Of a stretch of 64,000 nucleotides of DNA, positions 12,001-15,000 are shown piece after piece (position 1 is the stretch's first letter; each line of letters begins with the position of its first letter). The stretch is from Escherichia coli (lineage in GTDB: Bacteria > Pseudomonadota > Gammaproteobacteria > Enterobacterales > Enterobacteriaceae), in the NCBI RefSeq assembly GCF_017348835.2, contig NZ_CP071375.1. One strand, 5' to 3'. The position numbers are program-made.

Positions 12001-15000
12001 CTTTGTGCTTTGTTAGAGATATAACCATCCCCATAGGTGGTCATGTTTAATGTTTCAGCGTAATTAGCTGCAAAGTAGATGTTGTTGGCATCATATTTTA
12101 TACCTGTGGCCCACAGTTCTGCATTCTTACCGGAGGCATTGAGAGGATTAGCAGCGGCTCTTTCCTGCGCATTTGTCCGATCGGATTTGGTATATACCGC
12201 ACCGATACCAAAGCCATCATAAACATAAGTTGAGGAGATACCGAAACCGTCACCGTTGGCACGCGTGTAGTCAGCACCATAAAGATGACTGTTGTCAGTA
12301 CGTTCATTTTTGCCTTGATATTGCGCGGCAAAGTTCAGCCCTTCAATTAAGCCAAAGAAATCGTAGTTGCGATAGGTTGCTACACCGGTGGTACGGTATG
12401 TCATGAAGACATCTTTCTGACTCCAGGTATCGCCACCAAATTCTGGCAACATATCGGTCCATGAACCAATGTCATAGCCGACACCGTAGTTACGACCATA
12501 GTCCAGAGAGCCAAATTCACTAATTTTTAAACCAGCATAGGCCAGACGGGTCTTGTTGCCGCGCGAGCCGTTGGCTTCATCGTATAGCCTTTAAAATCAT
12601 ATTCCCAGTGACCAAAACCAATCATTTGATCATTGATTTGCGTTTCTCCTTTAAAGCCGAGACGGGCATAAGTTTTATCACCATCGTCACGCTTATCATC
12701 AGTAAAATAACGTAGAGCGGTAACCTTGCCATAAAGGTCGAGTTTATTACCATCCTTGTTATAGACTTCGGCAGCGTGTGCTACGTTCGCAGCTAACAAA
12801 CCAGTTACAACCACCGCAACTATTTTTAATTTCATTTAACAGAATCCTTTTAATTATCGTTAAACGTATTTTCTAAACGAATTTTAAACAGCGTCATTTA
12901 TAAATGACATACTGTTTTTAAAATAGAATGGTGATTAAAAACAATGAGAAAAATAGATGAAATAATATTATTTATCGATATGTGATCGAAGTCGAAATGA
13001 GATATAAGGTGAATTACTGGTATTCGAAATTTATTTTTTAATATTGTCGGAATTTATCTGATTAACTGCCAGGCCGTAGACCCGGCAATTATTTTAGCCA
13101 CGACGTGTCGCCAGCCAACAGAGCAGGGAACCGCCGCAGACCATTAGCGCACCTTGCCAGAACGAGAACGACAGCGGGGCGCTGAGCAGCACGGCTGCAA
13201 GCGCTGAGGAAAGTACGGGCGTAAAATACGAACCTACCGCCATTATGGTGACGTTACCATGTAATATACCGACATTCCATGCAGCATAAGCAAATCCTAA
13301 GGTAAATGCCGCAGAGATGAGTTTAATCATGACGGGCGTGCTAAATACCATTTCTGGTTGTGGCGTGAGAAAATAGTAAACCCACAGACTTACTCCCGTT
13401 AGCAGGACAAAAACGGTAATTCCGTTAAATCCGCGTGCGTATTTATTCGTTACTGTGCAATAGGCTGCCCAGATAAACGCACCAATAAACGCCAGGAAAT
13501 AACTCAATGGGCTGGAGGTAATATTATTGATGATTTCATCATAATGTAACCCATTGTCACCGCCTAACACCCAGCAGACGCCGACCAGGGCTAATAATAA
13601 TCCTGGTACAATCAGCCAGTTGGTTTTCTGACCATTAAACAGAATGGCAAAGAGAATTGTCAGGCTGGGCCATAGATAGTTCACCATACCCACTTCAATC
13701 GCCTGATGACGGGTCGCCGCATACCCTAAGGAAAGCGCCAGACAGATTTCATAGCTGACGAATAACAGACTCCCGGCGAGTAAATAGCCTTTCGGGATTT
13801 GCCGAATACGCGGAAATCCAACCGTGAAGATTAACAGCAGCCCGCTTAATGAATAGATAGCAGCTGCGCCGCCGACCGGGCCGAGCCCCTCACTGACACC
13901 GCGAATCAATCCTACCATCGTGCTCCACAGGACGATCGCTATTAGCCCTATGAGCGTTGCTTTTTGTCGTGTCATGCTCGCTGTTTTGTCTCTCTTGCCG
14001 TTAAAAATTAAGCTGAATTTTATAGCATTTTTTTAACTGGCCTGTCAGGCAGTGGTGCGTTTTTCTACCGCTATTGAGGTAGGTCAATTTGCGCAGGCGG
14101 ATTATTTTGTGGCAAACACGTGTTCTTTTTGATTTCGCGCAAAAAGATTCAGAATTTTACTGTTAGTTTCCTCGCGCAGTAATACCCCTGAAAAAAGAGG
14201 AAAGCAATGGACGTCAGTCGCAGACAATTTTTTAAAATCTGCGCGGGCGGTATGGCTGGAACAACAGTAGCGGCATTGGGCTTTGCCCCGAAGCAAGCAC
14301 TGGCTCAGGCGCGAAACTACAAATTATTACGCGCTAAAGAGATCCGTAACACCTGCACATACTGTTCCGTAGGTTGCGGGCTATTGATGTATAGCCTGGG
14401 TGATGGCGCAAAAAACGCCAGAGAAGCGATTTATCACATTGAAGGTGACCCGGATCATCCGGTAAGCCGTGGTGCGCTGTGCCCGAAAGGGGCCGGTTTG
14501 CTGGATTACGTCAACAGCGAAAACCGTCTGCGCTACCCGGAATATCGTGCGCCAGGTTCTGACAAATGGCAGCGCATTAGCTGGGATGAAGCATTCTCCC
14601 GTATTGCGAAGCTGATGAAAGCTGACCGTGACGCTAACTTTATTGAAAAGAACGAGCAGGGCGTAACGGTAAACCGTTGGCTTTCTACCGGTATGCTGTG
14701 TGCCTCCGGTGCCAGCAACGAAACCGGGATGCTGACCCAGAAATTTGCCCGCTCCCTCGGGATGCTGGCGGTAGACAACCAGGCGCGCGTCTGACACGGA
14801 CCAACGGTAGCAAGTCTTGCTCCAACATTTGGTCGCGGTGCGATGACCAACCACTGGGTGGATATCAAAAACGCTAACGTCGTAATGGTAATGGGCGGTA
14901 ACGCTGCGGAAGCGCATCCCGTCGGTTTCCGCTGGGCGATGGAAGCGAAAAACAACAACGATGCAACCTTGATCGTTGTCGATCCCCGTTTTACGCGTAC

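What the first reader, a model, noticed from the sequence alone, without database searches (positions are those of the whole stretch)
14129..14142. FNR-like site upstream of fdnG
TTGAT-N4-CGCAA lies about 70 bp upstream of the fdnG start, consistent with the anaerobic (FNR plus NarL) control known for fdnGHI. I could not convincingly locate NarL heptamers by eye.
Basis: partly seen in the sequence, partly recalled or inferred. Interest (0 to 1): 0.2.

Follow-up and report, generated by a model that had tools for sequence, protein, structure and literature searches.

The report
Known FNR site of fdnG promoter
The motif is the long-known oxygen-sensor (FNR) binding site of the E. coli formate dehydrogenase-N promoter, correctly placed and conserved across enteric bacteria, so the finding is right but ordinary.

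Summary
Window 14129-14142 reads TTGATTTCGCGCAA, 78-65 bp upstream of the fdnG ATG (14207). The window is E. coli, and the site is identical to K-12. It is the classical FNR site of the fdnGHI promoter. Anchoring it at the published -42.5 puts +1 at A14178, and the only two good NarL heptamers then fall exactly at the published -109 and -100 (7-2-7, 14066-14081). A conserved extended -10 (TG-T-TAGTTT, 14161-14169) lies 21 bp downstream.

As a motif it is weak: 8/10 to consensus, 10.4 bits, rank 9 in the window, about 5.5 such matches expected by chance per 64 kb. Position and conservation carry the case. A protein-anchored search found TTGATTTNNC[G/T]CAA upstream of fdnG in 80 of 80 orthologous loci from more than 25 genera. 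The NarL/NarP 7-2-7 lies exactly 62 bp upstream in 68 of 81 sequences.

One wrinkle: the best FNR match in the whole window is a second motif, TTGAGGTAGGTCAA (14074-14087, centre -97.5, 15.8 bits). It overlaps the NarL 7-2-7, occurs only in Escherichia, and is the site that Myers et al. 2013 assigned to the fdnG ChIP peak. Its role is unresolved.

Verdict: observation confirmed, interpretation supported, already known, low interest.

The parts
14129..14142 (+). FNR site TTGATTTCGCGCAA, centre 14135.5 = -42.5 (class II position); the feature in the finding
   Evidence: sequence. (published -42.5). (identical in K-12). (TTGATTTNNC[G/T]CAA in 80 of 80 orthologues). (10.4 bits).
14161..14169 (+). 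Extended -10 element TG-T-TAGTTT (hexamer 14164-14169); no -35 hexamer
   Evidence: the TAGTTT hexamer (14164-14169) has mean identity 0.96 across 79 distinct sequences, and the surrounding block CTGTTAGTTTC is similarly conserved; fixed 21-bp gap after the FNR site in all orthologues; no sigma-70 -35/-10 pair in the region, as expected for an activator-dependent promoter.
14178..14178 (+). Inferred transcription start (+1, A); 29-nt 5' UTR with Shine-Dalgarno AGAGGA at 14196-14201
   Evidence: Inferred from the published positions and the self-consistent mapping. It lies 9 nt after the end of the conserved -10 hexamer. Not measured here.
14066..14081 (+). NarL/NarP 7-2-7 site TACCGCT-AT-TGAGGTA (heptamer centres -109 and -100; site centre -104.5)
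   Evidence: each heptamer 6/7 and at the published positions; a 7-2-7 lies exactly 62 bp upstream of the FNR centre in 68 of 81 sequences, scoring at least 10/14 in 74 of 81 (background P = 0.004).
14051..14057 (-). Published NarL heptamer position -124 (CACCACT on the - strand, 5/7)
   Evidence: position. Poorly conserved, mean identity 0.27.
14098..14104 (-). Published NarL heptamer position -77 (TAATCCG on the - strand, 5/7). It lies inside a conserved block, 14099-14114, that reads as a degenerate 7-2-7 centred at -71.5 in most genera.
   Evidence: mean 7-2-7 score 8.9/14 at offset 29 against a background of 5.0; at least 10/14 in 38 of 81; E. coli scores 8/14.
14074..14087 (+). Second FNR-like motif TTGAGGTAGGTCAA, centre -97.5, overlapping the right half of the NarL 7-2-7; found in Escherichia only
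   Evidence: 15.75 bits, rank 1 in the window, 0.24 expected per 64 kb; listed by Myers et al. 2013 Table S6 at 1545292 as the PWM site under the yddG/fdnG ChIP peak; absent outside Escherichia.
14207..17254 (+). fdnG (formate dehydrogenase-N alpha subunit), Tat signal MDVSRRQFFK, selenocysteine TGA at 14792-14794
14789..14847 (+). SECIS element for the fdnG UGA codon
   Evidence: RF01989 SECIS_3, 84.3 bits, E = 1.4e-18.
17267..18797 (+). fdnH (17267-18151) and fdnI (18144-18797), the rest of the operon driven by this promoter

Best explanation
This is the FNR operator of the fdnGHI (formate dehydrogenase-N) promoter of E. coli, a class II FNR-dependent sigma-70 promoter. Under anaerobiosis the [4Fe-4S] FNR dimer binds TTGAT-N4-CGCAA centred at -42.5. 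There it overlaps the missing -35 region and recruits RNA polymerase to the extended -10 (TG-T-TAGTTT), with initiation at about A14178. The site is a deliberately weak FNR match, so FNR alone gives little transcription. Full expression needs phospho-NarL bound to the 7-2-7 inverted repeat at -104.5, plus weaker heptamers at -124 and -77. The operon is therefore expressed only when oxygen is absent and nitrate is present. Shown here: the sequence, its identity to K-12, the geometry, and deep conservation of the FNR site, the -10 and the 7-2-7 spacing. Taken from the literature: the -42.5 and heptamer positions, FNR/NarL dependence, and in vivo FNR occupancy. Inferred: the exact +1, and the idea that the weak site makes occupancy depend on NarL.
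For: Sequence and coordinates. Locus identity: yddG/fdnGHI annotation, Sec codon plus SECIS. The intergenic region is present in 5413 of 5426 complete E. coli genomes at 95% identity or better. The three differences from K-12 lie at -84, -59 and -58, outside all elements. Published architecture is FNR at -42.5 and NarL at -77/-100/-109/-124 (PMC3349551). With the FNR site set at -42.5, the only two strong heptamers fall at exactly -109 and -100. FNR and NarXL control of fdnGHI is established (PMC11841067). An FNR ChIP peak lies upstream of fdnG, and the operon is activated by FNR only with nitrate/NarL (PMC3688515). The FNR ChIP-chip value rises from 6.22 (fermentation, no expression effect) to 106.67 (nitrate, activation) (PMC3974632 Tables S3/S4). 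Conservation: a loose regex with 7 specified bases found one site in every non-Escherichia locus, and the bases not specified by the regex (T5, T6, T7, C10) are also invariant in 80 of 80. Flanking sequence is only 0.36-0.57 identical. The -10 block and the 62-bp FNR-to-7-2-7 spacing are conserved. The ChIP-bound hcp site in Myers Table S6, TTGATTTAGCGCAA, has the same CGCAA right half.
Against: The site is a poor matrix match: 10.4 bits, below every one of the 62 ChIP-positive training sites. It is absent from Myers' list of sites passing ln(p) <= -10.75. Myers' ChIP-seq summit (1545309 = window 14091) lies 44.5 bp from it and only 10.5 bp from the stronger -97.5 motif. The primary mapping and mutagenesis papers (Li & Stewart 1992; Darwin et al. 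1996; Wang & Gunsalus 2003) are not in the held library, so the -42.5 assignment rests on a secondary citation plus my triangulation. The TSS was not measured. Relative to the conserved -10 hexamer, the published +1 implies a rather long 8-nt discriminator.
Confidence: 0.93

Rival explanations
1. In Escherichia, FNR binds two sites. The strong -97.5 motif (TTGAGGTAGGTCAA, 14074-14087) is the main FNR target when nitrate is absent. Because it overlaps the right heptamer of the NarL/NarP 7-2-7, FNR and NarL-P would compete there. FNR at -97.5 would be non-activating or damping, as reported for upstream FNR sites at other promoters (yfiD -93.5, from memory), or it would serve the divergent yddG promoter. 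The -42.5 site would still carry activation.
For: It is the best FNR matrix score in the whole 64-kb window: 15.75 bits, 0.24 expected per 64 kb, about 0.0009 per intergenic region. It is the site Myers et al. list under the fdnG ChIP peak (PatSer 14.43, ln p -12.93). The ChIP-seq summit is 10.5 bp from it. FNR is bound in glucose medium without any FNR-dependent expression, Myers' Category 3. Both half-sites are intact in all 7 Escherichia sequences, including E. albertii. A probable yddG extended -10 lies at 14019-14027 on the - strand, which would put this motif about 68 bp upstream of a yddG start (inference).
Against: It is absent from every non-Escherichia orthologue; GGTCAA has mean identity 0.36. 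Conservation within Escherichia has no power: P of 0 changes in 10 positions is about 0.14, and half of those positions belong to the NarL heptamer. The ChIP summit does not discriminate: median summit-to-motif offset is 19.5 bp, 24% of single-motif peaks are off by 44.5 bp or more, and the likelihood ratio is about 2.3. Federowicz's fermentative region is centred at window 14187.5, nearer the -42.5 site. yddG shows no FNR-dependent expression in PMC3974632. No paper in the searchable library discusses this site.
Confidence: 0.3
2. The -42.5 motif is a chance resemblance with no function, and anaerobic control of fdnG is exerted elsewhere, for example only through the -97.5 motif.
For: By matrix or consensus the motif is no better than chance in a 64-kb window, and it fails Myers' PWM threshold.
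Against: It is invariant in 80 of 80 orthologous promoters across more than 25 genera while the flanks are scrambled. It keeps a fixed 21-bp distance to a conserved extended -10. It sits exactly where the literature places the functional FNR site. The alternative -97.5 motif does not exist in most genera, which nevertheless keep the FNR/-10/7-2-7 layout.
Confidence: 0.02
3. The inverted repeat is a CRP (cAMP receptor protein) site rather than an FNR site.
For: FNR and CRP recognise related 5-4-5 / 5-6-5 inverted repeats at the same promoter positions.
Against: The half-site is TTGAT (FNR type), not GTGA/TGTGA (CRP type), and TTGAT is invariant in 80 of 80 loci. Published regulation of the operon is by oxygen via FNR.
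Confidence: 0.01

Closest known systems
E. coli K-12 fdnGHI operon control region (Li & Stewart 1992; Li, Kustu & Stewart 1994; Darwin, Li & Stewart 1996; Wang & Gunsalus 2003)
   Same: It is the same locus. The 231-bp yddG-fdnG intergenic region is 98.7% identical to K-12. The FNR site, the extended -10, the 7-2-7 and the -124/-77 heptamers are base-for-base identical.
   Different: Three substitutions relative to K-12, at -84 (C for A) and -59/-58 (CG for GA), all outside the mapped elements. No functional difference is expected.
narG promoter (FNR at -41.5 plus distal NarL heptamers, IHF-dependent)
   Same: A class II FNR site combined with upstream NarL sites gives the same logic: no oxygen AND nitrate. 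[quoted passage not shown]
   Different: At narG the NarL sites lie further upstream and need IHF-mediated bending. At fdnG the main NarL target is a single 7-2-7 at -104.5, at a fixed 62 bp from FNR. The narG FNR site is a strong match (TTGATCGTTATCAA, PatSer 14.78), whereas the fdnG site is weak.
nirB and nrfA promoters (FNR at -41.5 with a NarL/NarP 7-2-7 at -69.5 / -74.5)
   Same: Class II FNR plus a 7-2-7 site. The conserved block at about -71.5 upstream of fdnG in most genera resembles this proximal arrangement.
   Different: At fdnG the strong, position-conserved 7-2-7 is distal (-104.5). The proximal element is degenerate, 8/14 in E. coli. The nirB/nrfA positions are from my own knowledge, apart from the nir description.
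hcp promoter FNR site TTGATTTAGCGCAA
   Same: It has the same half-sites (TTGAT / CGCAA) and differs from the fdnG site at one spacer base. It is ChIP-bound in vivo (Myers Table S6).
   Different: It scores above Myers' threshold (13.11) while the fdnG site does not. It belongs to a different promoter context.

Membership tests
Class II FNR-activated sigma-70 promoter | Inverted repeat matching TTGAT-N4-ATCAA | tested here: met
   TTGAT-TTCG-CGCAA matches 8/10, with the TTG/CAA cores intact in both halves. It is weak by PWM: 10.4 bits, below all 62 training sites.
Class II FNR-activated sigma-70 promoter | Site centred near -41.5 relative to the transcription start, overlapping the -35 region | tested here: met
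   The published centre is -42.5. The register is confirmed by NarL heptamers falling at exactly -109 and -100. The centre lies 28.5 bp upstream of the first base of the conserved -10 hexamer. The start itself was not measured here.
Class II FNR-activated sigma-70 promoter | Recognisable -10 element with poor or absent -35 hexamer | tested here: met
   No -35/-10 pair was found by the consensus scan. The conserved extended -10, TG-T-TAGTTT, is at 14161-14169.
Class II FNR-activated sigma-70 promoter | FNR-dependent anaerobic activation and FNR occupancy in vivo | not testable with these tools
   Literature only, for K-12 DNA that is identical at the site: PMC11841067, PMC3688515 Table 2 and Table S5, PMC3974632 Tables S3/S4.
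NarL/NarP 7-2-7 nitrate-response element | Two inverted heptamers TACYYMT-N2-AKRRGTA | tested here: met
   TACCGCT-AT-TGAGGTA at 14066-14081 scores 12/14; the background P of a score of 12 or more is 8e-5 per position.
NarL/NarP 7-2-7 nitrate-response element | Located at the experimentally defined position of the fdnG control region (-109/-100) | tested here: met
   Heptamer centres are at -109 and -100 when the FNR site is set to -42.5. The 62-bp spacing is kept in 68 of 81 orthologous sequences.
NarL/NarP 7-2-7 nitrate-response element | Binding of phospho-NarL and nitrate induction | not testable with these tools
   Literature. The primary footprinting papers are not held.
fdnGHI operon (formate dehydrogenase-N) | Tat-signal selenoprotein alpha subunit with UGA plus SECIS, followed by fdnH and fdnI; yddG divergent upstream | tested here: met
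   ORFs and annotation. SECIS_3 at 84.3 bits on the TGA at 14792. yddG is divergent in 73 of 80 orthologous loci.
Tandem-FNR promoter (second upstream FNR operator, as at yfiD or ndh) | A second FNR site upstream that is bound and changes promoter output | tested here: inconclusive
   The motif is present and strong (15.75 bits) and is listed under the ChIP peak by Myers. However, ChIP resolution cannot separate it from the -42.5 site, it is Escherichia-specific, and no functional data were found.

The most novel reading that the evidence does not exclude
In the Escherichia lineage the fdnG control region acquired a second, high-affinity FNR operator at -97.5 (14074-14087) that physically overlaps the NarL/NarP 7-2-7. 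FNR and phospho-NarL would then compete for the same DNA. FNR would park there without activating when nitrate is absent, or would act on the divergent yddG promoter, and NarL-P would displace it when nitrate appears. This would explain why genome-wide studies see FNR bound at fdnG without FNR-dependent expression, and why the PWM hit reported for the peak is not the classical site.
Probability: 0.25. Interest if true: 0.35.

Novelty: already known. Interest (0 to 1): 0.1.

Why it matters
It matters little as a discovery. The FNR site at -42.5 and the NarL heptamers of fdnG have been textbook examples of combinatorial oxygen/nitrate control since the 1990s. The check does yield three useful points.

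1. The functional site is a weak matrix match that a PWM threshold misses. Myers et al.'s genome-wide list reports a different motif for this promoter, which is a caution for anyone using matrix scans alone.

2. The FNR site, the extended -10 and the 62-bp FNR-to-7-2-7 spacing are conserved across more than 25 genera of Enterobacteriaceae. The 7-2-7 sequence itself turns over while staying palindromic, which is a clean example of conservation of architecture rather than sequence.

3. The Escherichia-specific -97.5 motif overlapping the NarL site is a small, testable open question.

Tried and rejected
1. Primary papers. I tried to read Li & Stewart 1992 (PMC206306), Wang & Gunsalus 2003 (PMC180993), Stewart & Bledsoe 2003 (PMC151514), Lin et al. 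2007 (PMC2168752) and Lin & Stewart 2010 (PMC3068693). None is held. Published positions therefore come from a secondary source.

2. Generic sigma-70 promoter scan. It found nothing in 13900-14300. That is uninformative, and expected for an activator-dependent promoter with no -35.

3. ChIP-seq summits. I used them to decide which FNR motif is occupied. Summit-to-motif offsets at 50 other peaks are too scattered (median 19.5 bp, 24% at 44.5 bp or more), so the likelihood ratio is only about 2.3. I rejected this as a discriminator.

4. Substitutions within Escherichia. I used 7 sequences to test constraint on the -97.5 motif. There were 0 changes in 10 positions, but P is about 0.14, so there is no power.

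5. ChIP-exo data. A search for FNR ChIP-exo data mentioning fdnG found none. Federowicz 2014 is ChIP-chip with regions of 275 bp or more.

6. MotifAdjuster supplements. They hold no fdnG rows as text.

7. Federowicz motif hit. TAGCATTTTTTTAAC (window 14023-14037) appears in the Table S5/S6 files, which carry the same rows under both the 'ArcA' and 'Fnr' labels, and fdn does not occur in the text of the ArcA ChIP tables. I do not treat it as an FNR or ArcA site. It coincides with a probable yddG -10.

8. Perfect NarL heptamer TACCCCT at +9. I considered it as a functional site. It is not conserved outside E. coli (0.37 identity), so I left it as an observation.

9. CRP-site reading. Rejected on half-site sequence.
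Full report
OBSERVATION. Window 14129-14142 reads TTGATTTCGCGCAA, that is TTGAT-N4-CGCAA, on the + strand. 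The ORF starting at ATG 14207 (MDVSRRQFFK..., a twin-arginine signal) runs to an in-frame TGA at 14792-14794 and continues to 17254. RefSeq annotation of the same DNA in K-12 and O157:H7 names the genes yddG (- strand, 13094-13975), fdnG, fdnH and fdnI at these coordinates. Rfam finds a single family above gathering score in the whole window: SECIS_3 at 14789-14847 (84.3 bits), directly on that TGA. The gene is therefore fdnG, and the motif spans -78 to -65 from its ATG. 'About 70 bp upstream' is correct.

IS IT MORE THAN CHANCE? As a bare motif, no. TTGATN4ATCAA with up to two mismatches occurs 55 times in the window against 40.2 +/- 6.3 in dinucleotide shuffles. The site scores 10.4 bits, which is lower than every training site and ranks 9th in the window. 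About 5.5 +/- 2.5 sites that good are expected per 64 kb of first-order Markov sequence. It is also absent from Myers' list of sites passing their PatSer threshold. The case for function rests on position and conservation, not on motif strength.

IDENTITY OF THE LOCUS. The 231-bp yddG-fdnG intergenic region is found in 5413 of 5426 complete E. coli genomes at 95% identity or better. It is 100% identical to many strains and 98.7% identical to K-12. The three differences from K-12 lie at window 14094 and at 14119-14120, which are -84 and -59/-58. They fall outside every regulatory element discussed below.

POSITION RELATIVE TO THE MAPPED PROMOTER. The primary mapping papers are not in the held library. 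Babujee et al. 2012 (PMC3349551) restate the K-12 architecture with reference to Darwin, Li & Stewart 1996: an FNR site at -42.5 and NarL heptamers at -77, -100, -109 and -124. Setting the centre of the motif (14135.5) to -42.5 gives +1 = A14178 and a 29-nt leader. I then scored every heptamer in the intergenic region against TACYYMT. The only two upstream heptamers scoring 6/7 or better are TACCGCT (14066-14072) and TGAGGTA (14075-14081, inverted), and their centres fall at exactly -109 and -100. The two heptamers form the 7-2-7 inverted repeat that NarL and NarP dimers prefer (PMC4549865, PMC2718512). The published -124 and -77 positions correspond to 5/7 matches on the - strand (CACCACT and TAATCCG). 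-42.5 is a class II activating position, and Myers et al. note that activating FNR sites are predominantly near -41.5.

PHYLOGENETIC FOOTPRINT. To avoid circularity I searched one genome per species (GTDB r220) using only the first 195 residues of FdnG. I kept the 80 best loci, all at 88% amino-acid identity or better and drawn from more than 25 genera of Enterobacteriaceae. A loose regex with only 7 specified bases (TTGA-N7-CAA) found exactly one hit upstream of fdnG in every non-Escherichia locus. All 80 sites conform to TTGATTTNNC[G/T]CAA, so T5, T6, T7 and C10, which the regex did not specify, are also invariant. The majority form is TTGATTTGACGCAA. In an alignment anchored on the site, both half-sites are about 100% identical while flanking segments are 0.36-0.57 identical.

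Three other conserved features emerged. First, the block CTGTTAGTTTC (14160-14170) is strongly conserved (hexamer identity 0.96) and keeps a fixed 21-bp gap from the FNR site in all orthologues. It reads as an extended -10, TG-T-TAGTTT, and the most distant genera have TG-C-TATTTT. The consensus promoter scan finds no -35/-10 pair here, as expected when an activator replaces the -35 contact. Second, a 7-2-7 element lies exactly 62 bp upstream of the FNR centre in 68 of 81 sequences. At that fixed offset, 74 of 81 score at least 10/14, against a background probability of 0.004 per position. The actual sequences differ between genera (TAACCCTAAAGGATTA, TACCCCCTTATGGGTA and others), so position and palindromy are conserved rather than sequence. 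Third, a block at about -80 to -64 (typically TGACTAT-TA-AGGGGGC) overlaps the published -77 heptamer. It behaves as a degenerate 7-2-7 centred at -71.5: mean score 8.9/14 against a background of 5.0, at least 10/14 in 38 of 81 sequences, and 8/14 in E. coli. Because this is a single inherited block, I treat it as tentative.

MECHANISM. The best-supported reading is the established one. Anaerobically activated FNR binds at -42.5 and recruits RNA polymerase to an extended -10 promoter that lacks a -35. Phospho-NarL bound at the 7-2-7 (-104.5) and at auxiliary heptamers is required for high-level expression. The result is oxygen-absent AND nitrate-present logic, co-ordinated with narGHJI (PMC11841067). 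Genome-wide data agree. Myers et al. find an FNR ChIP peak at yddG/fdnG in all four peak callers but no FNR-dependent expression in glucose medium without nitrate, and they place fdnG in their 'co-activation by NarL' category. Federowicz et al. 2014 report an Fnr-associated region with a value of 6.22 and no expression effect under fermentation, against 106.67 with activation under nitrate respiration (Tables S3/S4; the paper describes that column as a log2 ratio). I infer, without proof, that the weakness of the -42.5 site (10.4 bits) is what makes FNR occupancy and activation depend on NarL-P.

The best FNR match in the whole 64-kb window is a second motif in the same intergenic region: TTGAGGTAGGTCAA at 14074-14087, centred at -97.5. 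It scores 15.75 bits and ranks 1st, with 0.24 expected per 64 kb and about 0.0009 per 231 bp. It overlaps the right heptamer of the NarL 7-2-7. This motif, not the classical site, is what Myers et al. list in Table S6 for the yddG/fdnG peak (position 1545292, PatSer 14.43). Their ChIP-seq summit (1545309 = window 14091) is 10.5 bp from its centre and 44.5 bp from the -42.5 centre.

I tested whether this discriminates between the two sites. For 50 other single-motif peaks in the same tables, the median summit-to-motif offset is 19.5 bp and 24% are 44.5 bp or more, giving a likelihood ratio of only about 2.3 in favour of the -97.5 motif. Federowicz's fermentative region is centred nearer the -42.5 site. 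The motif is confined to Escherichia; the GGTCAA that completes it has 0.36 identity elsewhere. Within seven Escherichia sequences neither FNR motif has a half-site substitution, but with 42 of 231 variable positions this has no power for 10 positions (P about 0.14). No paper in the searchable library discusses it. It may be a real second FNR operator that competes with NarL or NarP, it may serve the divergent yddG promoter, or it may be a lineage-specific coincidence. I give a functional role about 0.25-0.3.

COMPARISON WITH KNOWN SYSTEMS AND NOVELTY. This is not a relative of the K-12 fdnG control region. It is that region, identical at every mapped element. Its logic matches narG (class II FNR plus upstream NarL), and it partly resembles nirB and nrfA (FNR plus a proximal 7-2-7). 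The half-sites equal those of the ChIP-bound hcp site TTGATTTAGCGCAA. All testable membership features of a class II FNR promoter and of a NarL 7-2-7 element are met. FNR and NarL binding and regulation cannot be tested with these tools and rest on the literature. Novelty: already known.

VERDICT. The finding is ordinary and already explained. Interest is 0.1. The residual value lies in the caution about matrix thresholds, the deep conservation of promoter architecture, and the unresolved Escherichia-specific -97.5 motif.

Noticed in passing
window 14074-14087: A second FNR-like motif, TTGAGGTAGGTCAA, is centred at -97.5 and overlaps the NarL 7-2-7. It is the best FNR matrix hit in the window (15.75 bits) and the site Myers et al. 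2013 list for the fdnG ChIP peak. It occurs only in Escherichia, and its function is unknown.
   Followed up: yes
window 14183-14189: A perfect NarL consensus heptamer, TACCCCT, sits at +6 to +12 in the fdnG 5' UTR. It is not conserved outside E. coli (mean identity 0.37), so it may be incidental.
   Followed up: partly
window 14019-14033: The block TTATAGCA(T/C)TTTT is conserved across genera. On the - strand it reads TG-C-TATAA(A), a probable extended -10 of the divergent yddG promoter (yddG is the neighbour in 73 of 80 loci). It coincides with the motif hit TAGCATTTTTTTAAC (1545241-1545255) in Federowicz 2014 Tables S5/S6, whose 'ArcA' and 'Fnr' files carry the same rows.
   Followed up: partly
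window 14099-14114: A conserved block (in most genera TGACTAT-TA-AGGGGGC) lies at about -71.5 and overlaps the published -77 NarL heptamer. It scores as a degenerate 7-2-7 (at least 10/14 in 38 of 81 orthologues; 8/14 in E. coli). It could be a proximal NarL/NarP site, as at nirB and nrfA, or an alpha-CTD contact.
   Followed up: partly
L009-L014, L018-L022, L026 (Citrobacter); L031, L032 (Salmonella); L024, L047, L060: The distance from the FNR site to the fdnG ATG is 74-82 bp in most genera. It is 126 bp in Salmonella arizonae/diarizonae, 133-135 bp in many Citrobacter, and 184-223 bp in three other loci. The extra DNA lies downstream of the -10, in the 5' UTR, and I did not characterise it.
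   Followed up: no
window 14789-14847: A SECIS_3 element (Rfam RF01989, 84.3 bits) begins 3 nt upstream of the fdnG selenocysteine codon, TGA 14792-14794. It is the only Rfam family above gathering score in the 64-kb window.
   Followed up: yes
window ~23847-30640: About 6.8 kb of accessory DNA lies between osmC and ddpF and is absent from the O157:H7 record used for comparison. It is present at full length in only 230 of 5426 complete E. coli genomes and is 100% identical to pig strain PE164. It is annotated as GntP permease, acetyl-CoA acetyltransferase, 3-hydroxyacyl-CoA dehydrogenase, LysR regulator and 3-hydroxybutyrate dehydrogenase, a likely 3-hydroxybutyrate/acetoacetate utilisation cluster.
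   Followed up: partly
window 11735-12835: The ompC-like porin gene next to yddG is an intact 1101-bp CDS in O157:H7 and the yddL pseudogene in K-12. In this window it appears as two ORFs (238 aa at 11736-12452 and 102 aa at 12527-12835), which suggests it is disrupted here. Upstream lie leucine-rich-repeat effector (espR1-like) remnants.
   Followed up: no
window 10820-10833, 7703-7716, 19599-19612: These are other high-scoring FNR matrix hits: TTGATCAATATCAT (14.7 bits, in the LRR-pseudogene region), TTGATCAACGTCAC (13.9 bits, inside narU upstream of narZ) and GTGACGGAAATCAA (12.3 bits, inside adhP). Myers Table S6 lists the last two as predicted sites without a ChIP peak.
   Followed up: no
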